64,000 nt of DNA, from positions 7,591 through 71,590 of the forward strand of contig JASEFS010000018.1 of the NCBI GenBank assembly GCA_030018495.1, written 5' to 3'. The position numbers and the translations under genes are program-made. Shown piece after piece: positions 72 to 31,599 of the stretch (position 1 is the stretch's first letter; every line of letters starts with the position of its first letter). Origin of the DNA: Deltaproteobacteria bacterium (GTDB lineage Bacteria > Desulfobacterota > Desulfobaccia > Desulfobaccales > 0-14-0-80-60-11). The notes below the pieces were generated by a model that had not been told where the DNA came from, searched no databases, and saw nothing but the letters and a program-made list of their open reading frames with translations.

Positions 72-106
72 AATCACGAAAAGGCCCGGTGATGTTCGGG
101 CCCCTT
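72..106 (-). terminator. Rho-independent terminator candidate (end of antiporter/USP transcription unit)
   Basis: Minus strand reads GGGGCCCG-AACATCAC-CGGGCC followed by TTTTCGTGATTT, about 130 nt past the stop of the 234..671 ORF. Confidence 0.5.
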
Positions 107-233
107 CATAGTCATATCGCTGAAGAGACTGACCACGCCCGCAAGGATGATGAATTTTCAGGCCGCGGCTTGGGTTGAGGCTGTTGGCTTCCGGCTGTTT
201 TTGTTCATAAGGAGATTGGGGAAGGCTTCAGCC

Positions 234-671
234 TTAAGGGCCGGGGGTCAGCAATTCTTTGATATGGTCTAAATACCGGAGTATTTGATGGGCCCTGGGG
301 TCCAGGTAATCGATCAGTTCCGGCGGCGGTTCGCCAAAACCTCGCAGGTACTTGCCGGTCATTTCCGTGACGTCCACCCAGAGCAGGTAGCAGTGCCCCA
401 GGATGGTTTTGGCAACGTCCAGAGGGCTGGCTTCCAGGTGCAGGGAATCCCTTAATTCCTGCACGATGTCGCGGATGGCGGCAATATCCGCCGATAACTG
501 CGGCCGCCTTTCGGGATCAAGATTATTGGCTTCGTGGTAAAGGACGGAGTGCACTTCCCGCCCTTGGGCCCACTCCTGGAATTTAACCAAAGCTTCATCC
601 AACAGGGTGAGGGTTATCCGGATCCGGCTTCTCTGCGCCTCGCCAAGATTGGGGATGGGTCCCCTCTGCAT
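234..671 (-). CDS. hypothetical protein (145 aa)
   Basis: Uninterrupted ORF with a 42-nt gap to the upstream USP gene on the same strand; no family recognised. Confidence 0.6.
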   Translation of the reverse strand: MQRGPIPNLGEAQRSRIRITLTLLDEALVKFQEWAQGREVHSVLYHEANNLDPERRPQLSADIAAIRDIVQELRDSLHLEASPLDVAKTILGHCYLLWVDVTEMTGKYLRGFGEPPPELIDYLDPRAHQILRYLDHIKELLTPGP

Positions 672-713
672 GCCGCACTTTTCCTGTCAGGTTGTGGCGT
701 TTAACGAGGCTTG

Positions 714-1136
714 CTAACGCACGATGAGGACGCTACAAGGCGCGTGCCGGCTGACTTTTTCAGCAGTGGTGCCCAAGAAGGCGGCCCAGACCCCGGAGAG
801 CCCGGTATGGCCCACCAGCACTAAGTCGAACTTCCCTTCTCTGGCCACCTCCACAATAGTCTTGGCGGGATGTCCGGGCCGCATGATGGTTTTCAGCTCT
901 ATGCCGGCCTCTTGCGCCTGGGTGCGGGCTGATCTCAAAAGCTCGCCGTACTGCTGATCAGCAAACGCTTTTTCCTCCTGGACTTCATCAATGGTGCCGG
1001 CAAACTTGGGCAAGCCTTCCTGCACCGACAAGGCAACAAGCTCAGCCCCGTGAATTTTTGCCAGATTAATTCCCGCGTTCAGGGCTTTATTGGCCCCCTC
1101 CGAGCCGTCGTAGGCCAGCAAGATTTTTTTGTACAT
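714..1136 (-). CDS. universal stress protein (UspA family)
   Basis: 140 aa. N-terminal KKILLAYDGSE and C-terminal VGHTGLSG...VSRHAPCSVLIVR are typical Usp ATP-binding signatures. Confidence 0.85.
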   Translation of the reverse strand: MYKKILLAYDGSEGANKALNAGINLAKIHGAELVALSVQEGLPKFAGTIDEVQEEKAFADQQYGELLRSARTQAQEAGIELKTIMRPGHPAKTIVEVAREGKFDLVLVGHTGLSGVWAAFLGTTAEKVSRHAPCSVLIVR

Positions 1137-1322
1137 GTCGCCCCTCCAGAGCCGCTTTTTTAACCAGGGTCAGGCTGTTTTTAAGAAGGTAATTTCCCCC
1201 GGGCCGACAACCACGATCCGGTATGGCACCGGCCCGGGGGGGGTCCCCTAAAAGGGAGCGCTCATGGCCGCGCCCCTTTGTAGGCCAGGCAGTGAAGAAA
1301 CCTAAGAACATCGCGGGAGTGG

Positions 1323-2528
1323 TTACTCATCCGGCATATGCAGGAAGTGCTCGGTGGAGCCGATAAATTCCAGCTCGTATTCCCGGCCCAAGTTTACTTC
1401 CCGGGGCTGGAACCACACCTGTGCGATAATGGTTGGAACCACCGCCGAGGCGATGACGCCCGTCACCAAAATGGAGTACTGGTCTTGGTCAACATAGCCG
1501 TGGGTAAGGCCGAAGAGAGCGGAGATGCTGCCGAAAGTCAGGCCGGTTGCCATGAGCAGGGTGGTATAATTGCTCTCCCGCAGAGGCAGGCCGAAGAGCC
1601 GGCAGAGAGGCCAGATGCCCACAATTTTAGTAATCATCTTGGCCCAAAAAAGTGCCACGAGAATCCCAAAGCCGGCCACCAGGGCGGGCAAAGACACAAG
1701 GGTGCCGGCCTTGATGAAAAAGAAGGGGGTGAGCAAGGCGAAGGTGATGGCCCGCATGCGGTGGAGCATCACCTTGTCCTGAACGAACAGTCCGGCGATG
1801 ACCATGCCGAACAAGTAGGCTGGCAAGACCGCTTCACTGCGGGCCGTGACCGCCAGGGCCCCCAAGATGCAAAGCACCAGGAATATGAATTTAATTTCCG
1901 GCTCAATGACCCGGCCGCTCCAACGGGCAAAGGCCCAGCGGCAGATGGAGGGCAGCCGCCACAAGGCCACCACGGTCACCACCACAAAGACTATCAGCCA
2001 ACGATCATACTCGGCAAAAATCAACCCCAGGGCCAACACGGTCCCCAAATCGGTAACAAAGCAGGCCGTCAGGATGAGCTTTCCCAATTCGGTGTTGTTC
2101 AGCCCGGTCTCCACCATCACCGCGTAGACCACGGCCATGGAAGTGGTGGACAGGGCAATGCCCGCGATCTGGGCGGATTGCGGCTGCCACCCGCCGATGT
2201 AATAAGCATAGGCCATGCAGCCCAGGAAGGGGAACAGGAACGACATGGCGCCGATGGCCAGGCTGGGTCTCCACAGGCGTCGAAAGGCCTCGGGCTCGAT
2301 CTCGGCCCCGGCCAGGAAGGTCAGGACCACCGAAGCAAAGCCGGCCAAAAAATTGATCCAGGGGGTGGGCTTGAAAATGCCCCAGCCGAAGTAGGCGCCC
2401 AGGTTGCCCGCCACAAATCCCAGAAAAATCTCCACCAGCGCCACAGAAATGCCCAAGCGTATGGAGATGAGGCTGGCTAAAAGGGCTACACCGATCCAGG
2501 CCGCGGCGGTATACCAAACTTGTTCCAC
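1323..2528 (-). CDS. cation:proton antiporter (Na+/H+ exchanger family, CPA2-like)
   Basis: 401 aa, about 11-12 hydrophobic helices, sequence style of Na_H_Exchanger/Kef-type membrane domains; no C-terminal KTN domain. Confidence 0.8.
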   Translation of the reverse strand: MEQVWYTAAAWIGVALLASLISIRLGISVALVEIFLGFVAGNLGAYFGWGIFKPTPWINFLAGFASVVLTFLAGAEIEPEAFRRLWRPSLAIGAMSFLFPFLGCMAYAYYIGGWQPQSAQIAGIALSTTSMAVVYAVMVETGLNNTELGKLILTACFVTDLGTVLALGLIFAEYDRWLIVFVVVTVVALWRLPSICRWAFARWSGRVIEPEIKFIFLVLCILGALAVTARSEAVLPAYLFGMVIAGLFVQDKVMLHRMRAITFALLTPFFFIKAGTLVSLPALVAGFGILVALFWAKMITKIVGIWPLCRLFGLPLRESNYTTLLMATGLTFGSISALFGLTHGYVDQDQYSILVTGVIASAVVPTIIAQVWFQPREVNLGREYELEFIGSTEHFLHMPDE

Positions 2529-2574
2529 GTGAACCCTCCGCTTCTTCTTTTTTCCGGTCTCTCAAGAATGAATT

Positions 2575-2868
2575 TTACGATGAGTCTTTGGCATCATCAT
2601 CGACGATGGTTTCCCATTCCTCTCGAAAAGAATCCTTGTCAGTGAATGTCAAAGCAACAGTTTCCTCTGACTCGGGAGGCATATAATCCGATTCTTTCTG
2701 CAATACCAGCTTGACTGCCGGGATGTGCTCGGACTTGTCCTCTTGTCTCATTTCCTCAGCGCGCACATCTTCGGTGCCGGTTGAGTCCCAGGGAATCCTG
2801 CGGCCTCTGAGCTTCTGGATAAGGGCATAGGCCAGCAAGCCCACATAAATGATTACGACCAGGTCCAT
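2575..2868 (-). CDS. small membrane-anchored acidic protein (97 aa), first gene after fluoride riboswitch 1
   Basis: The ORF track starts at 2925, but that extension overlaps the riboswitch terminator. ATG at 2868 (MDLVVIIYVGLL...) is preceded by a GGGAGG SD. One N-terminal TM helix, then an acidic tail. Confidence 0.55.
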   Translation of the reverse strand: MDLVVIIYVGLLAYALIQKLRGRRIPWDSTGTEDVRAEEMRQEDKSEHIPAVKLVLQKESDYMPPESEETVALTFTDKDSFREEWETIVDDDAKDSS

Positions 2869-2902
2869 CCTGCCTCCCTTTGGGAGTATCCCAGGAAAGG
2901 CC

Positions 2903-3001
2903 AATAAAAAAACCCCTGTCCCCACCGGTAGTGAGAACAGGAGTCATCAGCTCGAGGCGCAGTTCGGCCGGTACGTTACCCGCCGGGCGGACTCCATCAC
3001 C
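2903..3001 (-). promoter_or_regulatory. fluoride riboswitch 1 (crcB motif, variant with enlarged internal region) plus competing terminator
   Basis: Minus strand: GGUGAUGGAGUCCGCC ... GAAC ... GCUGAUGACUCCUG. The P1 loop GGAGUC is complementary to downstream GACUCC (pseudoknot). CUCCUGUUCUCAC-UACCG-GUGGGGACAGGGG-UUUUUUU forms a terminator whose 5' arm reuses the pseudoknot strand. Confidence 0.7.
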
Positions 3002-3009
3002 TGGTTGAT

Positions 3010-3037
3010 TTTATAAACCCAGGCACCGGAATGTCAA
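3010..3037 (-). promoter_or_regulatory. sigma70-like promoter for riboswitch 1 operon
   Basis: Minus strand TTGACA (3037-3032), 16 nt, TATAAA (3015-3010), 8 nt before the first aptamer G at 3001. Confidence 0.6.
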
Positions 3038-3071: not shown

Positions 3072-3100
3072 TTGACAAAAATAGGAGGCACTCTTAAATT
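3072..3100 (+). promoter_or_regulatory. sigma70-like promoter for riboswitch 2 operon
   Basis: TTGACA (3072-3077), 17 nt, TAAATT (3095-3100), 10 nt before the aptamer start at 3111. Confidence 0.6.
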
Positions 3101-3110
3101 AAAATTAATC

Positions 3111-3196
3111 GGCAATGAGGTCTGCCGCAAACCGCCCCGCTTGCTCAGGGCGGGGATGATGACTTCTGTCCAACGGGCAGAAGTCATTTTTTTTCT
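3111..3196 (+). promoter_or_regulatory. fluoride riboswitch 2 (crcB motif) plus competing terminator
   Basis: GGCAAUGAGGUCUGCC-GCAAAC-CGCCCCGC(UUGCUCA)GGGCGGGG-AUGAUGACUUCUG. Loop GAGGUC pairs with GACUUC. Terminator AUGACUUCUG-UCCAACGGG-CAGAAGUCAU followed by U8 overlaps the pseudoknot strand. Confidence 0.85.
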
Positions 3197-3225
3197 GCCG
3201 CTCACTTTAAAAAGGAGGGACCGCC

Positions 3226-3510
3226 ATGAAGGAGTTTGATGAAATCATTCGGGAAAAGGGGCTGCCCCGCGTGGGGCAGACGGTGCGCAGCAAGAAGTAC
3301 GGCACTCTTTGGCGAGTCATGGAAAAAAGAGAAATATGGCAGTCCATCGCCGATGACCCCCAAACCGGGGAACCGCGTATGATACCGGCTATTTTTTTAT
3401 CTTACTGGAAAATGCAGGAGGGCGGCCAGCCCGGTACCGGAAAAGTCATGGGATTTACCTATACCCTCTATGACAACACCTTTGCGACGCACTGGGAGGT
3501 TGTGCCCTGA
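3226..3510 (+). CDS. conserved small protein of unknown function (94 aa), paralog A, directly behind fluoride riboswitch 2
   Basis: AAGGAGGG SD 6 nt upstream of the ATG. About 72 of 94 residues are identical to the 9770..10057 product by manual alignment. Confidence 0.8.
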   Translation: MKEFDEIIREKGLPRVGQTVRSKKYGTLWRVMEKREIWQSIADDPQTGEPRMIPAIFLSYWKMQEGGQPGTGKVMGFTYTLYDNTFATHWEVVP

Positions 3511-3645
3511 CCTCCAAAGGATGGGTTAAAGGACATCGAAATGCTGGCATTGGAGTGTTGTTGATGACCGATATTGAATCATCCGATCCCCGAAAAATCT
3601 TCAATGGCCCCCCCTCTATCAGGAGAACCGGAAGGAGGTCCGACG

Positions 3646-3864
3646 ATGGGGAAGATTATCGAGCTCCGCCTGACCAAGAAGGCTGTTTACCGGGCCGCGG
3701 TAAAGGAAATGAATAAAATGTATCAGCTCTCTGCGGGCGGCACGGACCCGATCATCGATGAGGCGTCCAGATGGGCGTTTGAAAGAGGCGAAATAGACGA
3801 AGTGATATGGAAGGATTGGGGGTCTTACTGCGTAATGATGTTAAACAGAATAGGAAAAATCTAA
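3646..3864 (+). CDS. hypothetical small protein (72 aa)
   Basis: ATG at 3646 preceded by GGAAGGAGG; the longer track ORF from 3574 lacks an SD. No family recognised. Confidence 0.5.
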   Translation: MGKIIELRLTKKAVYRAAVKEMNKMYQLSAGGTDPIIDEASRWAFERGEIDEVIWKDWGSYCVMMLNRIGKI

Positions 3865-3958
3865 CTAGATAAGTTACTTAAAGAATCCTAAAAAGGCGAG
3901 ACTCTTTAATGTTCAGCAATGTGAAATAAATCTCAAACTATTAAGGAGGAACAGGATT

Positions 3959-5740
3959 ATGGCTAAGTATGACCCCACTAAAATGGAAGACTGGCAAATC
4001 GGTGAGCTCGCCGAAGAGGAGCTGGATTTCAACCGGCAATGTGACAAAATCGGCATCCTGCCCGAAGAGCGCATCCCCATGGGTCGGAAAATCGGCAAAG
4101 TTGACTACATGGCCATCCTGGAGCGCCTCAAGGACAGACCGGACGGCTATTATATCGATATCACCGCCATCACCCCTACTCCCCTGGGAGAGGGTAAGAC
4201 CGTGACCACCATGGGGTTGATTGAAGGCCTGGGCAAGCGGGGCGTGAACGTGGGCGGTGCCATCCGCCAGCCCTCGGGCGGCCCCACCATGAACATCAAG
4301 GGCACCGCGGCGGGCAGCGGCATAGCGCTCTTGATCCCGATGACCGACTTCTCCCTGGGACTCACCGGCGACATCAACGCCATCATGATCGCCAACAATT
4401 TAGCCATGGTGGCCCTGACCTCCCGGCTGCAGCACGAGTTCAATTACGATGATGAGCAACTGGCCAAAATCCCTCTCAAACGCTTGAACATCGATCCCAG
4501 AAGGGTGGAGATGAAATGGTGCTTTGACCTGTGCGCCCAGTCGCTGCGCAACATCACCATCGGCCGGGGCAGCAAGATGGACGGCTACATGATGGACTCC
4601 GGCTTCGTCATCGCGGTGGCCTCGGAAGTGATGGCCATCCTCTCCATGTTCAAAGACCTGCCGGACCTGCGCAAGAGGTTGGGCGAAATCACCGTGGCCT
4701 ATGACAAGAAGGGCAACCCGATTACCACCGAGGACCTGGAGTGCGCCGGGGCCATGACCGCCTGGATGTTTAAGACCATCAACCCCACTCTGTGCGCCAC
4801 CGTGGAATTGCAGCCGGTCTTCGTGCATGCCGGGCCCTTCGGCAACATCGCGGTGGCCCAGTCTTCCATCGTCGCCTGCCGGACCGGTCTGAAGCTCTTT
4901 GACTACCATTGCACTGAGTCCGGCTTCGGCTGCGACCTGGGCTTCGAGAAATTCTGGAACATCAAATGCCGGGAAAGCGGGCTCAAACCCAACGTAGCGG
5001 TGCTTACCAGCTCCATCCGGGCCCTCAAGCACCACGGGGTCAACGCCGGGGCTCTGCCCGTCCGGCCGGGAAAGCCCATTCCCCAGGAGTATTACACCTC
5101 CACCCCCGAGACTTTGGCCTGGCTGGAGGACGGCCTCAAGAACCTGGTCCACAACATCAATATCGTCAAGCAGTCCGGCATCAAGCCGGTGATCTCCATC
5201 AACCGCTTCCCCACCGATACCGATGAGGAGGTCAAGATGGTCAAACGGTGCGCCGAGGCCGAAGGGGTCCGGGCCGCGGAGGGCAACTACTGGCGCTATG
5301 GGGGTGAGGGAGCCCTGGAATTGGCTGACGCGGTCATCGACGCCTGCAAAGAGAAGGTGGACTTCCGGTTCCTTTATCCTACGGAGATGCCGCTGCGCCA
5401 AAAGATTGAAACCATCGCCACCAAAGTGTATGGAGCCAGCGGAGTAGTTTATACGCCCGAAGCTGAGGCCAAGGCGAAGGCTTTTGAAGCCGATCCCAAG
5501 TTCAAAGATTATCACGTAATGATGGTGAAGACGCATCTGTCGTTGACCCACGATCCCACCCGGAAGGGCGTCCCCAAGGGCTGGGACCTGGCGGTCCGGG
5601 ACTTTCTGCTGTACAGCGGCGCCAAGTACATCTGTCCATGTACCGGCACCATCTCACTTATGCCCGGCACCAGCTCCAACCCGGCCTTCCGGAGGGTGGA
5701 CGTGAATCTCGAGACCGGCAAACCTTACGGCCTGTTCTAA
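3959..5740 (+). CDS. fhs: formate--tetrahydrofolate ligase (divergent FTHFS family member)
   Basis: 593 aa. Contains [10 protein letters not shown](V)TT P-loop, [37 protein letters not shown] and a C-terminal GLF, collinear with canonical FTHFS. The glycine-rich loop is altered ([18 protein letters not shown]). Confidence 0.85.
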
Positions 5741-5906: not shown

Positions 5907-6437
5907 CTAAATTTTGGCTTGGGTGCGCTCATAAACTTTTCTTGCAAAATCATCAAGCATCTTTTCACAAATTTTTATCTTCTCCAAAGCGGTTTTCCTA
6001 AGAGGAGCCTTAATTACATCCCGTTTTTCCACTTTTCTGAACCACTGCTTTAATTTTTCCAGTTCTTCCTCGTTTTCCTCGACTTCCGCGAAGATGAAGT
6101 TCTGTCTTTGAATTTCATATTCCATCTCTTTAAAATAAGCTTCACACTTGTCTATAATTTCCTTATACTCTTCATTTCTGGACTCGGTAAAAGCTTCGAC
6201 GATGAGTTCTTCTTGCTCTTTACTGAGAATTTTTCCCACAATTAACAAGCCCATTCCTTTGAATCCTTTAATATTTTCGATAAGCTTATTGAATTCATTG
6301 ACTCGTTCTGAAGAATACGGGGCCACCCATACCGTCTGGTAGTTGACGGCTCCAATTTTTCTCAACTGCCGCCAAACAAAGACCCTGGCTTTGGAAGGGG
6401 TTGTCGGCAAACTATACGAAAAGAACAGCCATTTCAT
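5907..6437 (-). CDS. ChrB N-terminal-domain-like protein (176 aa)
   Basis: N-terminus MKWLFFSYSLPTTPSKARVFVWRQLRKIGAV resembles the ChrB_N signature (SLPt..s..R...WR.L...GA). The gene is markedly AT-richer than its neighbours. Confidence 0.55.
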   Translation of the reverse strand: MKWLFFSYSLPTTPSKARVFVWRQLRKIGAVNYQTVWVAPYSSERVNEFNKLIENIKGFKGMGLLIVGKILSKEQEELIVEAFTESRNEEYKEIIDKCEAYFKEMEYEIQRQNFIFAEVEENEEELEKLKQWFRKVEKRDVIKAPLRKTALEKIKICEKMLDDFARKVYERTQAKI

Positions 6438-6563
6438 GGAAATACGCCGCCTACCCCCCAGAATGCGAAGTCCCGTCTCCGGGTGGCGTCGGTCGGAAGG
6501 AAATCCGGCAGGGAGCCACCCGACTACTCACTGAGTCCATGCGATTGCGGCATTATATCATCT

Positions 6564-7529
6564 TCAAATCTTCAGGCCCAACATGACTGTTCCGACCACG
6601 AACAGAACATAAAGGGCCATGAGGGTAATGCCCACCCAGCGAGGCGTATGGCCCCGCCAAACGATTATCAGCAAAATGAGCCAACTCAAGGCCACGGCGG
6701 GGAAAAAATAATCCAAAGCCACCGCTTCCACCGTCAGGGGGCGGATCAGGGCGCAAATTCCCAAGGTAAACAGCAGTTGAAAAAAAGAACTGCCCGCGAC
6801 GTTTCCGATAACCACTTCCGGGTGTCCCTTTTGGGCCGGGATGATGGCTTCCACCAATTCCACGGAATTGGCGGCGATGGCCAGCAGGGTCAAACCGAGA
6901 ATGGTCTCCGCGATGCCGGTCCAGATTAGGACCGCTTTCACCCCCTTGATCACCAGGAGAGCGCCCACCACCAAGCCGATGAGCCCGCCCACCAACATGA
7001 GGGGGAAGTGCCAGGCCGGCTCCCGGATGATCTTCTCCACCTCTTCTTCCGCTTCCTCAATCTCCTCCTTGGCAGCCCTGGTTCGCCGCAAGTCGGTGAT
7101 CAGGTAAGCCATGAAAGCCCCGTAAACTCCCAGGACAATAAAGCCATCGGGACGGCTGATCTCCCCGTCAAAGGCCAAAAGGAAAACCAGCAGGAGGACG
7201 CCGCCCAGCATCCAAATGTATTTCAGGGGGAAATCAGGGTGTCTGATGGGAAAAAGGGCCGCCGCCGAGCCCAGGGCGAGAAATATTAAAAAGATAACCG
7301 TGCCCAGGATACTGCCGAAGGCCAGGGCCGTCAGGTGCTGGTAAGCGCCGATGACTGCCGGGGCAAATTCCTCCAGGTCGATGCTGATGATCAGCATGGC
7401 CAGAACAAACGGCGTTACTGCCAAACGGGCGGCCAGGCCGACCAACCCCTCTACCAGGTACTTGGCCGCGAAGATGAGGATCAACACACCGACCAGCAAT
7501 GAGCCGATATTTATATAAAGATTTTCCAC
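6564..7529 (-). CDS. Ca2+/cation antiporter family protein (CaCA, YrbG-like)
   Basis: 321 aa, two hydrophobic halves separated by an acidic loop (EEIEEAEEEVE). Alpha-repeat-like GSILGTVIF and GNVAGSSFF motifs. GTG start with a GGAGG SD. Confidence 0.75.
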   Translation of the reverse strand: MENLYINIGSLLVGVLILIFAAKYLVEGLVGLAARLAVTPFVLAMLIISIDLEEFAPAVIGAYQHLTALAFGSILGTVIFLIFLALGSAAALFPIRHPDFPLKYIWMLGGVLLLVFLLAFDGEISRPDGFIVLGVYGAFMAYLITDLRRTRAAKEEIEEAEEEVEKIIREPAWHFPLMLVGGLIGLVVGALLVIKGVKAVLIWTGIAETILGLTLLAIAANSVELVEAIIPAQKGHPEVVIGNVAGSSFFQLLFTLGICALIRPLTVEAVALDYFFPAVALSWLILLIIVWRGHTPRWVGITLMALYVLFVVGTVMLGLKI

Positions 7530-7780: not shown

Positions 7781-7790
7781 CATCTACAAA

Positions 7791-7873
7791 GGTGATGAAG
7801 TCCGCCATAACCGCCCTGCCTTCCCAGGCGGGGATGATGACTTCTGTCCAGTAGCCGGGCAGAAGTTTTTTTT
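7791..7873 (+). promoter_or_regulatory. fluoride riboswitch 3 (crcB motif) plus competing terminator
   Basis: GGUGAUGAAGUCCGCC-AUAAC-CGCCCUGCC(UUCCC)AGGCGGGG-AUGAUGACUUCUG. Loop GAAGUC is perfectly complementary to GACUUC. Terminator ACUUCUGUCC-AGUAGCC-GGGCAGAAGU followed by U8. Confidence 0.85.
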
Positions 7874-7895
7874 CGCCCGGTCCCAGGAGGACCAT

Positions 7896-9650
7896 ATGGG
7901 AACCTTTCAACAACTCCAGGAGGCCCTGGAGAGGCAGCTTACCCAATTGGCGCGCCTGCCGGAATTTCAGGGTCCCGGCTTGCCCCGGATTTTGGAGAAA
8001 CTGCGACAGAACCGCTTTCATCTGGTGGTGCTGGGGGCTTTCAAGCGGGGCAAAAGCACCCTGATCAACGCCCTGCTGGGCGACCCCATCCTGCCCACCG
8101 CCATCATCCCCCTGACTTCGGTGGTCACCATCCTCACCTATGGGGAGAGTCTGACCATCGAGGTGCGCTTCCATAACGGCCAGCGCCGGCAGATTTCCCA
8201 AGCCGAACTGGTGGATTACATAACCGAGAAGGGCAATCCCGGCAACCGCAAGGGAGTTCAGGAAGTCGAGATTACCTACCCTTCCGACTACCTCAAAGAA
8301 GGAGTGCGGATCATCGACACTCCCGGGGTGGGCTCGGTTTACAGCCATAACACCGACGTGGCTTATAATTACCTGCCCCAAGTGGACGCCGCCATCTTCG
8401 TGGTTACCGTGGACCCGCCCCTGTCCGCGGCGGAGCAGGAGTTTTTGCAGGATATCAGGGAGTTTGTCCACAAGATCTTTTTTGTCCTCAACAAGATTGA
8501 TTACGTGGAGGCCGCGGAGCGGCAGGAAGCCCTGGATTTCACCTCCCAGGTCCTGGCGGCCAACCTGGCAGCCTGCCCGGTGGCAATCTTTCCCCTGTCC
8601 GCCAAGATGGCCCTGGACGGCAAGACCAATGGCCACCCGGAACTCCTGGAGGCGAGCCTCCTGCCCCAATTCGAGGAGCACTTGCGCCAGTTCCTCTACC
8701 GGGAAAAGGGGCGGGTGCTGCTGATTTCCTGCGTCAGCGGGGCCTTGAAGGCCATCACCGACTCCACCCTGGCCCTCAAGGTGGAACGCCAGGCCAGCGG
8801 CCTGCCCTTGAAGGAACTGGAAGAAAAAATCGCCCGCTTTGATCTGGAATTGCAAGGACTGGAAAAAGAGCGGGAGATGTCCCTGCTCCTGCTGGACGGC
8901 CGGGTCAAAGGCGTGGTGGCGCAAGTGGACGCCGACCTGGAGGCTTTTAGAAAAGAAACCACCGCCCGTCTGCGCCGGGAGGTGGAGGCGACCTTCCAGC
9001 AAAAAAGCCGGGCCGCTCTGGACCTGCGGAAAGAGATGGAAGAATTCCTCTTCGCGGCGCTCAGAGATGTCTTCACCACTTGGCGGCGCCAGGAGATCGA
9101 GAAGCTTTCCCAGATATTGGCCGAGACCCACCAGGACTTCGCCGGCCGTATCAACGCCATCCTGGAGCGGCTGACCCAGTTGACCGCCCGCATCTTCGAT
9201 TTTTCCTTGCGGGGCTTTGCGGTGGAGGAAGCCTTCACGGATTTGCGGCAATTCTGGTTCAGGTTTAAGGAAGACCCGGTGGGGCTGGAAATACTGCAGA
9301 TGACCGTTACTTCCCTCTTGCCCAGGGCCCTGACCAAGGGGTTGCTCCTGAAAAAGCTGTTGGAAAATGTCACGGAGTTGGTGGACAAGCACTGCGGGCG
9401 GCTGCGCTATGACTTTCACCAGCGCCTCCAGGAGATTGCCCGGGACTTCCGCCAGACCTGGCTCGCCAGAATTGACGACACCACCCGGAGCATCCGCCAG
9501 GCCCTGGAGCGGGCCCGGGCTCAAAAGCAGACCAGCGCCCAGGCCGTCGCGGCCCGGGCGGGACAACTGGACCAGAGCCTGGCTGAAATCCTGAAGGCCG
9601 AAGCGCAATTGTTAGCCTTGAAGGAGCGCATTGAAGCGACCGTGCATTAA
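7896..9650 (+). CDS. dynamin-family GTPase (bacterial dynamin-like protein, 584 aa)
   Basis: GAFKRGKST (G1), IIDTPG (G3), LNKID (G4), then a long helical/coiled-coil C-terminal half. ATG at 7896 follows an AGGAGG SD; the track extension from 7752 overlaps the riboswitch. Confidence 0.8.
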   Translation: MGTFQQLQEALERQLTQLARLPEFQGPGLPRILEKLRQNRFHLVVLGAFKRGKSTLINALLGDPILPTAIIPLTSVVTILTYGESLTIEVRFHNGQRRQISQAELVDYITEKGNPGNRKGVQEVEITYPSDYLKEGVRIIDTPGVGSVYSHNTDVAYNYLPQVDAAIFVVTVDPPLSAAEQEFLQDIREFVHKIFFVLNKIDYVEAAERQEALDFTSQVLAANLAACPVAIFPLSAKMALDGKTNGHPELLEASLLPQFEEHLRQFLYREKGRVLLISCVSGALKAITDSTLALKVERQASGLPLKELEEKIARFDLELQGLEKEREMSLLLLDGRVKGVVAQVDADLEAFRKETTARLRREVEATFQQKSRAALDLRKEMEEFLFAALRDVFTTWRRQEIEKLSQILAETHQDFAGRINAILERLTQLTARIFDFSLRGFAVEEAFTDLRQFWFRFKEDPVGLEILQMTVTSLLPRALTKGLLLKKLLENVTELVDKHCGRLRYDFHQRLQEIARDFRQTWLARIDDTTRSIRQALERARAQKQTSAQAVAARAGQLDQSLAEILKAEAQLLALKERIEATVH

Positions 9651-9769: not shown

Positions 9770-10057
9770 ATGAAGGAGTATGACGAGATCATCCGGCAAA
9801 AGGGTCTGCCCCGCGTGGGACAGACGGTGCGCAGCAAAAAGTACGGTACTTTGTGGCGCGTCATGGAGAAAAAGGAGATTTGGCGCAACATCGATCCCGA
9901 CCCCCAAACCGGCGAACCCCGCATGGTCCCGGCCATCTACCTCCTTTACTGGAAGGTTCAGGAAGGAACCCCGCCCGGGGTAGGTAAAATGATGGGCTAC
10001 GAATACACCCTGTACGACAACACCTTTGCCTTAAACTGGGATATCGTCCAAGATTAG
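9770..10057 (+). CDS. conserved small protein of unknown function (95 aa), paralog B
   Basis: GAGGAGG SD; about three quarters identical to the 3226..3510 product. Confidence 0.8.
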   Translation: MKEYDEIIRQKGLPRVGQTVRSKKYGTLWRVMEKKEIWRNIDPDPQTGEPRMVPAIYLLYWKVQEGTPPGVGKMMGYEYTLYDNTFALNWDIVQD

Positions 10058-10068
10058 GCACCTGCCAC

Positions 10069-10106
10069 ACCCGGATTGGGGAGTATTCCGATCCGGGTTT
10101 TCTTTA
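10069..10106 (+). terminator. Rho-independent terminator after paralog B
   Basis: ACCCGGAT-(14 nt)-ATCCGGGT followed by TTTTCTTTAAATTT. Confidence 0.65.
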
Positions 10107-10150
10107 AATTTGGTCAACCACTTTTGCAAAAACAGCGGGGGGCATACGAA

Positions 10151-10786
10151 ATGACCCAAATTATCCTGGTGCGCCACGGCCAAACGCCCTGGAACAAGGA
10201 CAAGATTTTTCGAGGCTCCAAAGACATCCCCTTGAACGACCAGGGGCAAGAGGAAGCCCGCCTGGCCGGGGAATGGCTCAAAGGTGAGACCATTCATGCG
10301 GTTTATACTTCGCCTCTTTCCCGCTCCCGGGATACAGCCCTGGCCATTGCCCGACACCACGGCCTTCAAGTCACGGATTTGCCGGGTCTGAGCGATCTCT
10401 GCTATGGTGATTGGGAAGGTCTGCCCTTAACCGAGGTCAAAGTGAAATATGCTGACCTTTACCGCCAATGGGAGACAGCTCCCCACACAGTGCGCTTCCC
10501 TGGGGGTGAAACTCTGGAGGAGTTGCGCAGCCGCGCCATGGCTGCGGTAAATGAAGTAGTTCAACGACACCCCGGCCAGGTTGTCCTGCTTTCGGCTCAT
10601 CGCGCCGTCAACAAAGTCTTGATCGCCGCTCTCATCGGCCTGGACAATTCCCACTTCTGGCGCATCGGCCAGGATACTACTGCAGTCAACCGTTTTCACC
10701 TGGTCGGCGATGTCTGGCACATCATGTCGATAAACGATGCCTGCCACCTGCGCGGGATGCAACGCGGCGAGTACGTGGATTTTTGA
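10151..10786 (+). CDS. histidine phosphatase family protein (phosphoglycerate mutase-like)
   Basis: N-terminal ILVRHGQTPWN (RHG catalytic motif), later LSAHRAV. ATG at 10151. Confidence 0.8.
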   Translation: MTQIILVRHGQTPWNKDKIFRGSKDIPLNDQGQEEARLAGEWLKGETIHAVYTSPLSRSRDTALAIARHHGLQVTDLPGLSDLCYGDWEGLPLTEVKVKYADLYRQWETAPHTVRFPGGETLEELRSRAMAAVNEVVQRHPGQVVLLSAHRAVNKVLIAALIGLDNSHFWRIGQDTTAVNRFHLVGDVWHIMSINDACHLRGMQRGEYVDF

Positions 10787-10873
10787 TTCCTATCAGGGAG
10801 CTTCACCCTGTTCGCAGGCCAGCGCGCGATTTTAGCCGGTTATTGCCGGTTATTAATACATGGCCGCGGAGTC

Positions 10874-11290
10874 ATGAGATTTTATTGTCCCCGATGCTGG
10901 CAGGATTTTGACAAGGACTTGTCTCGCTGCCCTTACTGCGGCCTTGATATTCACGGATTCTGGAAGTCAAAAGATTACGTGGAAAAATTGATCGTCGCCT
11001 TAAACCATCCGGAACCGGAAACTCCCATCCGGGCGGCGTGGCTTTTGGGAGAACTCAAGGACCCCCGGGCAGTTGAGCCGTTAATCAGGTTGATAAAATA
11101 TACTGAAGATGTGTACATTGCCCAGGCCGCAGTTGAGGCTTTGGGGAAATTTGAAACACCCGAGTCCCTGCATTTCCTGGACACTTTGGTTCATCACCCG
11201 GTCAAAATGGTCAGAGACACGGTGCTGCAAATCCTGGCCTCGCGAAATCGACACCGCCCCTCAACTGAGAAAGGAAAGGAAAATGTATGA
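10874..11290 (+). CDS. zinc-ribbon plus HEAT-repeat protein (138 aa)
   Basis: CPRC...CPYC at the N-terminus, followed by PBS-lyase/HEAT-like repeats ([29 protein letters not shown]). Confidence 0.65.
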
Positions 11291-12558
11291 GTAATAAAAT
11301 CACTTCCGTCCAGGCCATGGAAATCCTTGATTCCCGCGGCAACCCGACGCTTCGTGCTTATGTAACTCTGGACAACGGCATTTCTGCCTCTGCCTCCGTG
11401 CCTTCCGGCGCTTCCACCGGCGAGAACGAAGCCGTGGAATTGCGGGATGGAGATAAAAAGCGCTATGGCGGCAAAGGCGTGTTGAGAGCCGTAGAAAACG
11501 TCAACACGGTTATCGCCTCCCGCCTCATTGGCCATGACCCCAGTCGCCAGGCCGAAATCGACCGCCTCCTGATCGAACTGGATGGCACCTCCAATAAAAG
11601 CAACTTGGGCGCCAACGCTATTCTGGGGGTGTCCATGGCGGTGGCCCGGGCCGCGGCGCAGTCCGCGCAGATCCCTCTTTACCAATATCTCGGTGGGGCT
11701 GGGGCAAGAAGATTGCCGGTCCCCTGCATGAACATCGTCAACGGCGGCCAACATGCCGACAACAGTGTGGACATCCAGGAATTCATGGCTGTTCCCATCG
11801 GCGCGCCTTCTTTCCGGGAGGGACTGCGTTACGTGGCGGAAACCTTCCATACCCTTAAGGGAATTTTGAAGGCTCGGGGCCTGGCGACCAGCGTTGGTGA
11901 CGAGGGCGGCTTCGCGCCGAATTTTTCCAGCAACGAGGATGCCATAGAAACGATCCTGCAGGCGATTGACAAGGCAGGCTACAAGCCCGGGGAGCAGATT
12001 GCCATTGCCTTGGACAGCGCCGCGAGTTCCTTTGCGCTGGATCGGGTCGGGGAGTACGACCTGAAGCGCTCCCGAGCCGGAAGAAAGACCAGCAGTGAGC
12101 TTATTGCTATGGCCGGCGAATGGCTCGAGAAATACCCCATCGTTCTCTGGGAAGACCCGTTGGCGGAAGGGGATTGGGAGGGATTTAAGCAGTTTACGGC
12201 TAAATATGGCGGGAAAATCGAAGTTGTCGGCGACGACATCTTTGTCACCAATACAAAATACATAGCCAGGGGGATCAAAGAAGGCACCGCGAATTCGGCG
12301 CTGATCAAGCTGAACCAGATCGGCACCGTAACTGAAACGATCGAAGCAGTGCGCATGTGCCGTGAGGCGGGTTGGCGCTATTTCCTCTCGCATCGGTCCG
12401 GAGAGACGGAAGACACCTTTCTGGCGGATTTTGCCGTCGCCATGGATGGGGGGCACCTCAAGACCGGCTCGGCAAGCCGCAGCGAGCGGATCGCCAAATA
12501 CAACCGCTTGTTGGAAATCGAGCAGGAGATTGGGAAAGAAGCTTTGTTTTACTGGTGA
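11287..12558 (+). CDS. eno: enolase (phosphopyruvate hydratase)
   Basis: 423 aa. [30 protein letters not shown] and [20 protein letters not shown] motifs. The ATG overlaps the upstream stop (ATGA). Confidence 0.95.
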
Positions 12559-30297: not shown

Positions 30298-31599
30298 CTA
30301 CTTTCCTCCCTGAGGTTCCTGGCAGGGAACCGGGGCGGCAGATTGAGCTGCGGCCAGGCGCCTGGAAGGGTTCAGAAAAGCGTGCGCCGCGGCCGGCACC
30401 ATCAGGATGAAAAACATGGTGCGGTGGCGCATTGCCGCGCCGACGTTGCATTGGAGTAAACTGCTGGAGCCAAACCCCAGGACGACAAAGATGAGCAGCA
30501 GCAGGGCCAATTTGCGCCTGCGGCGGTACAGCTCCGGCATGCCTTTCAAGAAATAAAATGTCAGGAGAAGCAGCAGGGCGGAATCGATAAGACCCAGAGC
30601 CTGCTTGGGCGAGCGCACCTGCCAGGGGAGAGGGGAATACATGAAGTAGCAAGTGGCCAGAGGCAAAGTGAGAATAAGATCTTTAACTGAGCCATAGCGC
30701 AGTCCCGGCAGATAAGCGGAGTCGGCGTCCTCGGAGGATTCCAGGCGCAGATTGAGATTGTCGATGCTGGTGAACTGCAAGGCCCGGCGCGTCAGCTCAA
30801 ACCCGTTCAAACGGTCTTTATTCCAAACAATGGTAGAAAATGTCGCCAGGATGAGCACCGCCAGCAATATTGCTTTAAGCGGCTTAAAGACATTGAGAGA
30901 CCGAAAGAGCCCCCGGTTTTTTATGAGCAGGGAAACGCCCAGCGTCAGGCCGCAGAGCACCAACAACGGGGGGCGCAGGAGCGTGAGATAGACAACGCCA
31001 GCAATTCCTTTGATATAGGCGGCCTTTCCGCATTTGTGATCGGGACAATCGCTGAGGGCTTCCGCCAAGAGGCGAAAGAGGAGAGTAATGAAAAACGCGA
31101 TGGGCATATCCCGGTTCAGAGTGGTAGCGATGACCCAGCCATATGGATAGAGCGCCACCCACAGAACAGCCAGATTGGCCGCCTGACGGTGGTAACAGGC
31201 CAGGGTCAGGCGATGTACGTTATAAAGGACGCCCAGACCCAGTACCGTGCTGAAGAGTTGGCCTAATGGTTCGGAAGGGCCGAAAATGAAGTAGAGAAAT
31301 CCCAGGGGCACGGTATATGCCGAATAGGCATAAAAAATCCGGGGAAGATTGCCTGGAAAATCATGGCTCAGCTGCAAACTTATGGCCGTGGCCAGCGATT
31401 GGTAAAGCTTGGCATCGTAAGTGCCCAAATCCGTAGGCAGACACAGTTTGAGAATTATGAAAGTGAGGCAAAAGGAAAAATACAACAGTAAAATTTTGGC
31501 CAAAAGACTGCGGTTCTTCAGCAAATACCACAACAGGAAGGCCAGGATAACCGAAGCCCAGGCGATCAGCGGCAAAATCGAAGGCAGGTATGAACTCAT
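30298..31599 (-). CDS. polytopic membrane protein, polysaccharide polymerase/ligase-like
   Basis: 433 aa, at least 10 TM helices, embedded between glycosyltransferase genes. Confidence 0.5.
   Translation of the reverse strand: MSSYLPSILPLIAWASVILAFLLWYLLKNRSLLAKILLLYFSFCLTFIILKLCLPTDLGTYDAKLYQSLATAISLQLSHDFPGNLPRIFYAYSAYTVPLGFLYFIFGPSEPLGQLFSTVLGLGVLYNVHRLTLACYHRQAANLAVLWVALYPYGWVIATTLNRDMPIAFFITLLFRLLAEALSDCPDHKCGKAAYIKGIAGVVYLTLLRPPLLVLCGLTLGVSLLIKNRGLFRSLNVFKPLKAILLAVLILATFSTIVWNKDRLNGFELTRRALQFTSIDNLNLRLESSEDADSAYLPGLRYGSVKDLILTLPLATCYFMYSPLPWQVRSPKQALGLIDSALLLLLTFYFLKGMPELYRRRRKLALLLLIFVVLGFGSSSLLQCNVGAAMRHRTMFFILMVPAAAHAFLNPSRRLAAAQSAAPVPCQEPQGGK

What the first reader, a model, noticed from the sequence alone, without database searches (positions are those of the whole stretch)
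72..3001. Fluoride-gated minus-strand operon without a canonical fluoride exporter
Riboswitch 1 leads into four genes: a 97-aa single-TM acidic protein (2575..2868), a CPA2-like cation/H+ antiporter (1323..2528), a USP (714..1136) and a 145-aa unknown (234..671). The unit ends at a terminator at 72-106. Na+/H+ antiporters and USPs have been reported among fluoride-riboswitch-associated genes, but usually alongside CrcB or EriC-F. I see no ~120-aa four-TM Fluc/CrcB-like or CLC-type ORF anywhere in this 64-kb window. Either the exporter is encoded elsewhere, or the small TM protein and antiporter pair provides the fluoride/pH defence here.
Basis: partly seen in the sequence, partly recalled or inferred. 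Interest (0 to 1): 0.6.

Follow-up and report, generated by a model that had tools for sequence, protein, structure and literature searches.

The report
Fluoride-switched antiporter operon lacking its exporter gene
This is a real fluoride-riboswitch operon for a cation/proton antiporter and a stress protein, a gene pairing already known and widespread, and here it is a trimmed copy of a Desulfobacca operon that normally starts with the fluoride channel gene crcB.

Summary
A fluoride riboswitch (2931-3010, minus strand; Rfam 37.9 bits against a threshold of 34) has its own promoter and an overlapping terminator. It precedes a 97-aa membrane-anchored acidic protein, a 401-aa CPA2-like antiporter, an ATP-motif USP and a 145-aa unknown protein. 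No CrcB or CLC is encoded anywhere in the 64 kb.

The antiporter belongs to a clade that follows a fluoride riboswitch in 69 of 76 testable genomes across about seven phyla, and a USP follows it in 51 of 80. In at least 13 of those genomes crcB sits in the same operon.

In Desulfobacca acetoxidans DSM 11109, the cultured type strain of the same order, the operon reads riboswitch, crcB, DUF190-CBS, antiporter, usp, MFS, eno. The window's lineage lacks the first two genes and keeps a 37-codon relic of the MFS gene. The antiporter retains the cation-site Asp and Lys, so it is most likely an accessory pH or cation-homeostasis module and not a fluoride exporter.

The 97-aa protein occurs in only six related loci, so it cannot be a general partner of the antiporter. 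I could not test whether this genome carries crcB elsewhere. Verdict: a new member of a known kind, of low to moderate interest.

The parts
3008..3037 (-). Sigma-70-like promoter of the minus-strand operon (TTGACA, 18 nt, TAAAAT). A divergent partner promoter for riboswitch 2 lies at 3072-3100 (+).
   Evidence: Consensus scan, 11 of 12 matches. Its position immediately 5' of the aptamer is read from the sequence; function is inferred.
2931..3010 (-). Fluoride riboswitch aptamer (crcB motif RNA, RF01734). It carries an extra hairpin (about 2963-2983) between P1 and the AAC segment.
   Evidence: Rfam 37.9 bits against a gathering score of 34, E 6.7e-7. My own covariance model gives 48.8 bits. 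The same inserted hairpin, with different sequences, occurs in antiporter-associated riboswitches of relatives.
2904..2945 (-). Expression platform: an intrinsic terminator (16-pair stem, then T7) whose 5' arm overlaps the 3' tail of the aptamer. This predicts a transcriptional ON switch when fluoride is bound.
   Evidence: Terminator scan and minimum-free-energy fold. The switching mechanism follows from established knowledge of fluoride riboswitches.
2575..2868 (-). 97-aa protein: N-terminal TM helix followed by KLRGRR, then an acidic tail with the conserved motif E-[ST]-G-E-T...T-[ED]-G-D-x-F-x-x-E-W-E. Function unknown; lineage-specific insertion.
   Evidence: ORF with RBS. No Pfam or NCBIfam match. 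Six orthologs at 31-55% identity, all located between riboswitch and antiporter. pI 4.4.
1323..2528 (-). 401-aa CPA2-like monovalent cation/proton antiporter without a KTN/RCK domain. The ion-site motif is T-D (N-D in many relatives) with a conserved Lys.
   Evidence: PF00999 at E 4e-36. TIGR00932 (CPA2) at 92 bits, below its cutoff. A profile of the clade matches NapA at E 1e-14 and KefC at E 8e-8. D160 and K301 are invariant. 69 of 76 homologous loci have an upstream fluoride riboswitch.
714..1136 (-). 140-aa universal stress protein with the ATP-binding motif G-x2-G-x9-G-T. Probable nucleotide-sensing partner of the antiporter.
   Evidence: PF00582 at E 3e-33. Motif at residues 109-123. A usp follows the antiporter in 51 of 80 loci, 31 of them within 50 nt or overlapping.
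234..671 (-). 145-aa conserved hypothetical protein, predicted to be four helices, with the motif L-R-G-[YF]-G-E-x-P...Y-L-D-P. It recurs in fluoride-riboswitch gene clusters of several phyla.
   Evidence: 119 database homologs, none named and none with a Pfam domain. Homologs in 14 of 80 genome loci. AlphaFold model pLDDT 74, no informative fold match.
101..205 (-). Relic of the N-terminus of an MFS transporter gene (37 codons, with an in-frame TGA, truncated). The intact gene follows usp in D. acetoxidans.
   Evidence: tblastn 51% identity, E 1.3e-4 against the window and 1.9e-5 against L001. Intact copies in relatives.
76..110 (-). GC-rich hairpin at the 3' end of the unit; probable terminator.
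   Evidence: Fold at -23.7 kcal/mol, z -3.15. Not flagged by the consensus scan. Convergent genes follow in L001.

Best explanation
This is a fluoride-inducible accessory operon for ion and pH homeostasis, not an exporter operon.

Rising cytoplasmic fluoride (bound as a Mg-F complex) stabilises the aptamer. That prevents the overlapping terminator from forming and lets transcription read into four genes.

The main product is a CPA2-type monovalent cation/proton antiporter. It probably works with the co-encoded ATP-binding USP as its cytoplasmic regulator. I think it corrects the pH and cation disturbance that comes with weak-acid (HF) entry, most likely by expelling H+ in exchange for Na+ or K+.

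The arrangement is a derived form of the Desulfobacca operon riboswitch-crcB-DUF190/CBS-antiporter-usp-MFS-eno:
- the two 5' genes (the Fluc channel and its DUF190-CBS companion) are missing;
- the MFS gene is reduced to a relic;
- a 145-aa helical protein and, in this sub-lineage only, a 97-aa membrane-anchored acidic protein have been added.

The fluoride channel itself is most likely encoded elsewhere in the genome.

Shown: the riboswitch, the gene content, the family assignments, the cross-phylum linkage of this antiporter clade to the riboswitch, the co-operonic crcB in relatives, and the absence of crcB or CLC in this 64 kb.

Inferred: co-transcription, the direction and ion of transport, regulation by the USP, and the location of crcB.
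For: Regulatory elements: riboswitch, promoter and overlapping terminator.

Linkage of the antiporter clade to the riboswitch:
- 69 of 76 loci with enough upstream DNA carry a same-strand fluoride riboswitch, usually 30-100 nt upstream. They come from Desulfobaccales, Verrucomicrobiota, Chloroflexota, Xanthobacteraceae, Sporomusaceae, Syntrophia and Bacteroidota.
- Rfam's own model, at its gathering score, confirmed 16 of 19 testable loci in a 20-locus subset.

CrcB in the same operon as this antiporter:
- Verrucomicrobiota: RS>crcB>DUF190>CPA>usp.
- Chloroflexota: RS>CPA>crcB.
- Sporomusaceae: RS>CPA>usp>crcB.
- D. acetoxidans DSM 11109: RS>crcB>DUF190-CBS>CPA>usp>MFS>eno, with no separate riboswitch before the CPA. 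The same order is seen in five further Desulfobacca-type contexts.

Orthology: window proteins are 66.6% (CPA), 71% (USP), 73% (dynamin-like), 68% (enolase) and 80% (PGM) identical to those of D. acetoxidans. The MFS relic marks descent from that layout.

Ion-site residues: the Asp aligned to NapA D157 and the Lys aligned to NapA K305 are invariant in 32 clade members.

USP: the gene is adjacent or overlapping in 31 loci, and the window protein has the ATP motif.

Literature: Na+/H+ antiporters are the second-commonest riboswitch cargo and are linked to pH homeostasis under HF entry (PMC11139923). A riboswitch-controlled uspA-eno-gpmA-crcB operon has been shown experimentally in E. cloacae FRM (PMC5533749).
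Against: - No transport or expression data exist for any member of this antiporter clade, as far as my searches of the held library show.
- The first residue of the NapA 'DD' pair is Thr here (Asn in many relatives). The protein scores below the curated CPA2 cutoff and has no single-sequence match in the PDB. Its ion specificity and stoichiometry are therefore open.
- None of about 25 Desulfobaccales loci of the window's type has crcB within 10 kb. Every Desulfobacca-type CrcB whose context I read lies inside the fluoride cluster. So 'crcB elsewhere' is an assumption for this lineage.
- The direction of proton movement is not determined. A Kef-like H+ import that collapses the pH gradient would also lower fluoride trapping.
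Confidence: 0.68

Rival explanations
1. Exporter-independent defence. The lineage has truly lost Fluc, and the riboswitch-controlled antiporter is the main defence. Exchanging K+ (out) for H+ (in) would shrink the transmembrane pH gradient, and with it the weak-acid trapping of fluoride. Riboswitch-driven extra copies of fluoride-sensitive enzymes (enolase, PGM, formate-THF ligase) would cover the remaining inhibition.
For: - No CrcB or CLC in 64 kb.
- No CrcB within 10 kb of the cluster in about 25 related species-level genomes.
- In all Desulfobacca-type genomes examined, crcB lies inside this cluster and nowhere else that I saw. Loss from the cluster could therefore mean loss from the genome.
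- The MFS relic shows that deletions occurred in this operon.
- Three riboswitch operons drive spare glycolytic and C1 enzymes.
- Kef-type proteins are among the nearest characterised relatives.
Against: - More than 85% of surveyed genomes have an exporter, and those without are mostly reduced symbionts (PMC11139923).
- Only a minority of Flucs are riboswitch-linked, so a constitutive crcB elsewhere is the common pattern.
- The same antiporter is co-operonic with crcB in four phyla, which suggests it works with the channel rather than instead of it.
- The reciprocal variants (crcB kept, antiporter deleted) show the antiporter is the dispensable part.
Confidence: 0.17
2. The antiporter clade, alone or with the 97-aa protein, is itself a fluoride or HF exporter that has diverged from cation/proton antiporters.
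For: - Very tight linkage of the clade to the fluoride riboswitch.
- A non-canonical T/N-D ion-site motif, and low similarity to characterised CPA2 proteins.
- In many Alphaproteobacteria the antiporter is the only gene I identified behind the riboswitch.
Against: - The carboxylate and the Lys of the cation/proton site are invariant, and further acidic residues (E140, E209, E211) are conserved. That is expected for cation binding and not for a small anion.
- The protein is co-operonic with a bona fide Fluc in many genomes, which would make a second exporter redundant.
- The 97-aa protein is absent from nearly all loci.
- I know of no precedent for anion transport within PF00999.
Confidence: 0.05
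3. The operon is a decaying remnant. After the rearrangements that removed crcB and truncated the MFS gene, the remaining genes or the riboswitch are no longer functional in fluoride defence.
For: - The MFS relic with an in-frame stop.
- The riboswitch score is only 4 bits above the Rfam threshold.
- A 186-nt spacer lies before usp, where relatives usually have overlapping genes.
Against: - All four ORFs are intact and conserved at 70-97% identity in many related genomes and metagenomes.
- The riboswitch keeps the conserved aptamer nucleotides, a matching terminator and a near-consensus promoter.
- The low Rfam score is explained by the inserted hairpin, which is shared and structurally maintained in relatives.
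Confidence: 0.05

Closest known systems
Fluoride riboswitch (crcB motif RNA, Rfam RF01734) with its 'super-regulon' (Baker et al. 2012, as summarised in PMC11139923 and PMC7266159)
   Same: The aptamer scores above the Rfam gathering threshold. It has an overlapping intrinsic terminator, which is the classic transcriptional ON architecture. Its cargo (Na+/H+ antiporter, USP; enolase in the neighbouring operon) is on the published list of associated genes.
   Different: It carries an extra hairpin between P1 and the AAC segment. Three riboswitches lie within 5 kb, driving three operons, and none of them controls an exporter.
Desulfobacca acetoxidans DSM 11109 fluoride cluster: PGM<p94<p94<dynamin-like<RS RS>crcB>DUF190-CBS>CPA>usp>MFS>eno (L209; CrcB = AEB10568.1 / WP_041283997.1)
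   Same: The divergent two-riboswitch core is the same. The antiporter (66.6% identical), USP (71%), dynamin-like GTPase (73%), p94 proteins (72-80%), PGM (80%) and enolase (68%) are orthologous.
   Different: - The window lacks crcB and DUF190-CBS.
- The MFS gene survives only as a 37-codon relic.
- It has gained the 97-aa and 145-aa genes.
- A third riboswitch operon (p94-p96-formate-THF ligase) is inserted.
- Enolase has moved behind the dynamin-like gene.
Thermus thermophilus NapA and E. coli KefC (CPA2 family; PDB 4bwz/5bz3, 8bxg)
   Same: These are the best solved-structure relatives by profile search (E 1e-14 and 8e-8), aligned over about 340 residues. The residues aligned to NapA D157 and K305 are conserved. 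Like NapA, the protein has no KTN domain.
   Different: NapA D156 is Thr or Asn here, so the electrogenic 'DD' signature is missing. There is no single-sequence match to any PDB chain. The score is below the TIGR00932 cutoff. The substrate ion is unknown.
Enterobacter cloacae FRM fluoride-resistance operon ppaC-uspA-eno-gpmA-crcB-orf5249 (PMC5533749)
   Same: A fluoride riboswitch drives a USP together with fluoride-sensitive glycolytic enzymes. Experiments there show that these accessory genes add to resistance beyond crcB.
   Different: That operon contains crcB and has no cation/proton antiporter. The organism is a gamma-proteobacterium on a genomic island.
Fluc/CrcB channels and CLC-F F-/H+ antiporters
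   Same: They are regulated by the same riboswitch class and belong to the same physiological response.
   Different: No homolog of either is encoded in the window. Nothing in the operon resembles their four-TM dual-topology fold or their CLC fold.

Membership tests
Fluoride riboswitch (RF01734) | Covariance-model score at or above Rfam's curated gathering score | tested here: met
   37.9 bits against 34, full-length match 1-64 of 64; repeated in a local scan.
Fluoride riboswitch (RF01734) | Expression platform that competes with the 3' tail of the aptamer | tested here: met
   A 16-pair terminator stem at 2945-2911 starts inside GAUGACUCCUGU and is followed by U7.
Fluoride riboswitch (RF01734) | Selective binding of fluoride (Mg-F) and fluoride-dependent read-through | not testable with these tools
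   Needs in-line probing, or transcription or reporter assays.
Monovalent cation:proton antiporter-2 (CPA2; PF00999 / TIGR00932) | Na_H_Exchanger transmembrane domain | tested here: met
   PF00999 at E 4.4e-36, covering residues 14-369.
Monovalent cation:proton antiporter-2 (CPA2; PF00999 / TIGR00932) | Score above the curated CPA2 subfamily cutoff (TIGR00932) | tested here: not met
   92.1 bits against a cutoff of 238.3. CPA2 proteins are nonetheless the nearest characterised relatives (NapA, KefC).
Monovalent cation:proton antiporter-2 (CPA2; PF00999 / TIGR00932) | Asp-Asp pair in the TM5-equivalent helix, typical of electrogenic CPA2 (NapA D156/D157) | tested here: not met
   The aligned residues are T159-D160 in the window, and T-D or N-D throughout the clade. 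Only the second Asp is invariant.
Monovalent cation:proton antiporter-2 (CPA2; PF00999 / TIGR00932) | Conserved Lys that pairs with the ion-site Asp (NapA K305) | tested here: met
   K301 is invariant in 32 sequences and aligns to NapA K305 in the profile alignment.
Monovalent cation:proton antiporter-2 (CPA2; PF00999 / TIGR00932) | Cation/H+ exchange activity | not testable with these tools
   Needs everted-vesicle or proteoliposome assays.
Kef-type glutathione-gated K+ efflux systems | C-terminal KTN/RCK regulatory domain | tested here: not met
   The protein ends about 30 residues after the transporter domain. No second Pfam domain was found. KefB/KefC equivalog scores are 44 and 26 bits against cutoffs of 804 and 752.
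Universal stress protein, ATP-binding (UspFG / MJ0577-like) type | Usp domain plus the G-x2-G-x9-G-[ST] nucleotide-binding motif | tested here: met
   PF00582 at E 3.3e-33 over the full length. The motif GHTGLSGVWAAFLGT is at residues 109-123. ATP binding itself was not tested.
Fluc / CrcB fluoride channel (PF02537) | An ORF in the operon or window matching the CrcB family | tested here: not met
   An HMM of 42 CrcB sequences gave a best E of 1.1 against all window reading frames (control 2.6e-44). tblastn was negative. The only small multi-TM ORF (51274-51720) is EamA.
CLC-F fluoride/proton antiporter (Voltage_CLC, PF00654) | An ORF in the window matching the CLC family | tested here: not met
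   Five of the seven ORFs with three or more predicted TM segments matched other Pfam families (Na_H_Exchanger, Na_Ca_ex, NrfD, FtsW, EamA), one matched MraY/Glycos_transf_4, and one (30298-31599) matched none. No ORF matched Voltage_CLC.
Fluc / CrcB or CLC-F elsewhere in the same genome | Presence of an exporter gene outside the 64-kb window | not testable with these tools
   Only 10-kb flanks of related contigs can be read. The order's type strain has CrcB, but the window's own MAG could not be inspected.

The most novel reading that the evidence does not exclude
A family-level branch of Desulfobaccales (about 25 species-level genomes here) has deleted the Fluc channel and its DUF190-CBS partner from the ancestral fluoride operon, and from the genome. 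It survives fluoride without any dedicated exporter. Instead it would rely on a riboswitch-induced cation/proton antiporter-USP pair to reset the pH gradient that drives HF trapping, helped in some members by the 97-aa acidic membrane protein. Riboswitch-induced spare copies of fluoride-sensitive enzymes would cover the rest.
Probability: 0.15. Interest if true: 0.65.

Novelty: new member of a known kind. Interest (0 to 1): 0.3.

Why it matters
On the ordinary reading, this adds a well-documented example to a known class, and the value is comparative.

- It defines a specific, cross-phylum clade of CPA2-like antiporters, usually paired with an ATP-motif USP, that is almost always under fluoride-riboswitch control. 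No member has been characterised biochemically, so it is a clean target for testing how pH or cation exchange contributes to fluoride tolerance.
- It flags three uncharacterised protein families (the 97-aa, 145-aa and 94/95-aa proteins) and a dynamin-like GTPase as recurrent fluoride-regulon members.

If the lineage really lacks Fluc and CLC-F, it would be a rare free-living bacterium that tolerates fluoride without an exporter. That would bear on fluoride toxicity models and on engineering fluoride-robust strains.

Tried and rejected
1. Single-sequence search of the antiporter against the PDB found nothing. A profile of the clade was needed to reach NapA and KefC.

2. Reading Baker et al. 2012 directly failed because the paper is not held. 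I relied on reviews that cite it.

3. A MAFFT alignment of the three window riboswitches misplaced riboswitch 1 because of its inserted hairpin. I built a covariance model from 33 regex-selected riboswitches with only P1 and P2 annotated, and cross-checked it with Rfam on 20 loci.

4. Is the 97-aa gene a remnant of crcB or DUF190-CBS? tblastn of the D. acetoxidans proteins against the window gave no hit in 2529-2930, so I rejected this.

5. Function of the 145-aa protein. Pfam and NCBIfam found nothing. The AlphaFold model is a four-helix protein of moderate confidence, and the best Foldseek match in the PDB has E 0.39, which is uninformative.

6. Finding crcB in the window's own genome.
   - The protein search, seeded with the CrcB of the closest crcB-bearing relative (L096), returned only Desulfobacca-type CrcBs.
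   - Every context I could read placed those CrcBs inside the fluoride cluster.
   - Accession look-up gave MDI6853909.1 for the window's 145-aa protein, but no CrcB from the same assembly.
   - The question remains unresolved.

7. The metagenome scan for Desulfobaccales-type riboswitches found several RS>crcB loci. Apart from L096 they differ in GC content or lack linking genes, so they could not be assigned to this lineage.

8. A literature search for DUF190 together with fluoride riboswitch gave nothing.

Full report
**1. What is in the sequence**

Rfam at its gathering thresholds finds three fluoride riboswitches in the window: 2931-3010 (-) at 37.9 bits, 3102-3175 (+) at 44.2 bits and 7782-7853 (+) at 45.4 bits. 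The family threshold is 34. The first is the one in the finding.

- A near-consensus promoter (TTGACA, 18 nt, TAAAAT; 11 of 12 matches) lies at 3037-3008 (-), directly upstream. It is back to back with a similar promoter for riboswitch 2.
- Directly after the aptamer, a 16-pair hairpin at 2945-2911 is followed by seven T. Its 5' arm is the aptamer's own 3' tail, GAUGACUCCUGU. This is the standard layout of a fluoride ON switch acting on transcription termination.

| Coordinates | Length | Assignment | Evidence |
|---|---|---|---|
| 2575-2868 | 97 aa | No family match | ATG behind AAGGGAGG; Pfam/NCBIfam empty |
| 1323-2528 | 401 aa | Na_H_Exchanger | E 4e-36 |
| 714-1136 | 140 aa | Usp | E 3e-33 |
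| 234-671 | 145 aa | No family match | Pfam/NCBIfam empty |

A GC-rich hairpin at about 76-110 closes the unit (-23.7 kcal/mol, z -3.15). On an overlapping contig from another sample, the next genes are convergent. The only soft point is that co-transcription across the 186-nt spacer before usp is inferred.

**2. No exporter in the window**

- I listed every stop-to-stop frame with three or more hydrophobic segments and ran them all through Pfam.
- They are Na_H_Exchanger, Na_Ca_ex, NrfD, FtsW, MraY, EamA, and one protein with no match. None is CrcB or CLC.
It scores 2.6e-44 on a control.
- tblastn with the Desulfobacca acetoxidans CrcB and DUF190-CBS proteins is also negative.

**3. Source organism**

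The antiporter's closest database relatives (74-97% identical) come from Desulfobaccales MAGs. The 145-aa protein is identical to MDI6853909.1 from a MAG labelled Deltaproteobacteria bacterium, locus tag QME75_09965.

**4. The antiporter clade is dedicated fluoride-riboswitch cargo**

A scan of one genome per GTDB species returned 80 loci encoding homologs at 44-87% identity. They come from Desulfobaccales, Verrucomicrobiota, Chloroflexota, Xanthobacteraceae and other Alphaproteobacteria, Sporomusaceae, Peptococcaceae, Syntrophia and Bacteroidota.

I built a covariance model from 33 riboswitches found in these loci and searched all of them.

- 69 of the 80 loci have a fluoride riboswitch on the same strand upstream of the antiporter. 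Four of the 80 lack enough upstream DNA to judge. The riboswitch is mostly 30-100 nt upstream.
- Rfam's own model, at gathering score, confirmed this in 16 of 19 testable loci of a 20-locus subset.
- A usp gene follows the antiporter in 51 loci. In 31 of these it lies within 50 nt or overlaps.
- The window USP has the G-x2-G-x9-G-T nucleotide-binding motif.

This fits the published statement that Na+/H+ antiporters are the next most common fluoride-riboswitch cargo after the exporters and serve pH homeostasis (PMC11139923). USP-containing riboswitch operons are likewise known from experiment (PMC5533749).

**5. What kind of antiporter it is**

- A single-sequence search of the PDB finds nothing. 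A profile of 32 clade members finds Thermus NapA (E 1e-14) and E. coli KefC (E 8e-8).
- NCBIfam gives the CPA2 subfamily model at 92 bits, well below its cutoff. There is no KTN domain.
- In the alignment to NapA, the residue matching D157 is invariant (D160 here), as is the Lys matching K305 (K301). The residue matching D156 is Thr here, and Thr or Asn across the clade.
- The protein therefore keeps the core of a cation/proton site but lacks the Asp-Asp signature of the electrogenic CPA2 members. I read it as a divergent CPA2-like exchanger of unknown ion and stoichiometry.
- Nothing suggests an anion site.

**6. The decisive comparison: relatives that carry crcB**

In 15 of the 80 loci a CrcB gene lies within 10 kb, and in at least 13 it is in the same direction and operon:

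- Verrucomicrobiota: RS>crcB>DUF190>antiporter>usp.
- Chloroflexota: RS>antiporter>crcB.
- Sporomusaceae: RS>antiporter>usp>crcB.

None of the roughly 25 Desulfobaccales loci of the window's type has crcB within 10 kb.

A metagenome scan for Desulfobaccales-style riboswitches produced one contig, L096, whose proteins are 66-71% identical to the window's. It reads RS>crcB>DUF190-CBS>antiporter>usp.

I used that CrcB as the query for a protein search. It returned a large family named, where names exist, after Desulfobacca. One cluster contains AEB10568.1 / WP_041283997.1 of D. acetoxidans DSM 11109.

The type strain's locus reads: PGM < p94 < p94 < dynamin-like GTPase < RS, then RS > crcB > DUF190-CBS > antiporter (393 aa) > usp > MFS > enolase. 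There is no second riboswitch in front of the antiporter. Five further contexts show the same order.

Window proteins compared with the type strain:

| Protein | Identity to D. acetoxidans |
|---|---|
| Antiporter | 66.6% |
| USP | 71% |
| Dynamin-like GTPase | 73% |
| Enolase | 68% |
| PGM | 80% |

At 101-205 (-), just after the 145-aa gene, the window keeps 37 codons of the MFS gene's N-terminus, with an in-frame TGA. Intact copies of that MFS gene sit between the antiporter and usp in other relatives.

The window's operon is therefore a rearranged descendant of a crcB-led operon. Reciprocal variants also exist, in which crcB and DUF190-CBS are kept but the antiporter, and most of usp, are deleted. 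The two modules are separable.

**7. The two unknown proteins**

The 97-aa protein:
- It has six orthologs (31-55% identical). All lie between riboswitch and antiporter, and all share an N-terminal TM helix and an acidic C-terminal motif.
- The basic residues after the helix suggest that the tail is cytoplasmic.
- It is a real gene, but most crcB-less relatives have the riboswitch about 60 nt in front of the antiporter with no room for it. It cannot be a required partner or a general substitute for Fluc.

The 145-aa protein:
- It has 119 database homologs, none with a product name other than 'hypothetical protein' and none with a Pfam domain.
- It has weaker relatives in fluoride clusters of Chloroflexota, Verrucomicrobiota and Syntrophia.
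- It is predicted to be four helices (pLDDT 74), with no informative fold match. Its role is unknown.

**8. Mechanism I consider most likely (confidence about 0.68)**

Fluoride enters as HF and dissociates in the cytoplasm, leaving F- and H+ (established weak-acid accumulation model; PMC11139923). The riboswitch senses F- and turns on an antiporter-USP pair that restores pH and cation balance, most plausibly by H+ extrusion against Na+ or K+. A Fluc channel removes the anion.

The co-operonic crcB in four phyla and in the type strain supports a cooperative, accessory role. So do the conserved cation-site residues and the existence of crcB-only variants. On this reading crcB is encoded elsewhere in the genome. 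That fits the published figures that most Flucs are not riboswitch-controlled and that more than 85% of genomes have an exporter.

**9. Rivals**

- The most interesting alternative (about 0.15-0.17) is that this branch of Desulfobaccales has truly lost Fluc and manages with pH-gradient control plus spare enzymes. In its favour, every Desulfobacca-type crcB I could place lies inside the cluster, the window's type of cluster never contains one, and deletions have clearly occurred here. I could not inspect whole genomes, so this stays open.
- The reading that the antiporter is itself a fluoride exporter (about 0.05) conflicts with its conserved acidic site and its frequent pairing with Fluc.
- The reading that the operon is decaying (about 0.05) conflicts with intact, conserved ORFs and regulatory elements.

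**10. Verdict**

The finding is real and correctly described. It is a new member of a known kind: a fluoride-riboswitch antiporter-USP operon. The 'missing exporter' is a genuine lineage-specific difference from the type strain's operon, but it is not evidence of a new export mechanism. Interest is low to moderate. The uncharacterised antiporter clade, the small proteins and the riboswitch-linked dynamin-like GTPase are the parts worth experimental follow-up.

Noticed in passing
window 7782-9650 (+): A dynamin-like GTPase (Dynamin_N at E 2e-29; likely start at 7896) sits directly behind fluoride riboswitch 3. Dynamin-like homologs lie in 27 of the 80 genome loci. Several follow a fluoride riboswitch directly, including loci from Verrucomicrobiota and Sporomusaceae and the D. 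acetoxidans type strain. I found no mention of this association in the papers I read.
   Followed up: partly
window 3226-3510 (+) and 9770-10057 (+): Two paralogous proteins of 94 and 95 aa have no Pfam or NCBIfam match. One directly follows riboswitch 2 and the other lies in the riboswitch 3 operon. Homologs occur in 20 genome loci, all of the Desulfobaccales type, always inside fluoride-riboswitch operons. They are 61-80% identical to the two D. acetoxidans copies.
   Followed up: partly
window 3102-5740 (+): Riboswitch 2 drives p94, a 96-aa unknown protein (3574-3864) and a formate-tetrahydrofolate ligase (PF01268, E 4e-199). This three-gene module is present in only some Desulfobaccales clusters. 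Where present, it sits between the antiporter operon and the dynamin-like operon.
   Followed up: partly
window 101-205 (-): Relic of an MFS transporter gene: 37 codons, 51% identical to the N-terminus of the D. acetoxidans gene, with an in-frame TGA. Intact copies of this MFS gene are recurrent members of Desulfobaccales fluoride operons. Their substrate is unknown.
   Followed up: yes
window about 2963-2983 (-), inside riboswitch 1: An extra hairpin lies between P1 and the AAC segment of the aptamer. The same insertion, with different sequences that still pair, occurs in antiporter-associated fluoride riboswitches of Desulfobaccales and Verrucomicrobiota. It lowers their Rfam scores; two relatives fall below the gathering score.
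   Followed up: partly
window 5907-7529 (-): A Na_Ca_ex family exchanger (321 aa) and a ChrB_N-domain protein (176 aa) lie between the formate-THF ligase and riboswitch 3, divergent from the dynamin-like operon. The same placement is seen in metagenome locus L148. They have no riboswitch of their own.
   Followed up: no
window 10076-12558 (+): The riboswitch 3 operon continues with a histidine-phosphatase-type phosphoglycerate mutase, a zinc-ribbon/HEAT-repeat protein and an enolase. These are extra copies of fluoride-sensitive glycolytic steps, as in the E. cloacae FRM operon.
   Followed up: partly
L212-L214 and L223 (crcB at 10001-10504 in L212); L205 and L222: Reciprocal operon variants exist in Desulfobacca relatives. 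In one, RS>crcB>DUF190-CBS>MFS>eno has the antiporter deleted, and L223 keeps a 35-aa usp relic. In the other the order is RS>antiporter>usp>crcB>DUF190-CBS>EamA. The crcB module and the antiporter module have been shuffled repeatedly.
   Followed up: partly
window 51274-51720 (-): A 148-aa EamA-family ORF with four or five TM segments is the only CrcB-sized membrane protein in the window. It is only 24% identical to the EamA gene that ends the fluoride operon in L205, and it has no riboswitch.
   Followed up: partly
window 30298-31599 (-): A 433-aa ORF with about eight predicted TM segments has no Pfam or NCBIfam match. It lies in an unrelated minus-strand gene row.
   Followed up: no
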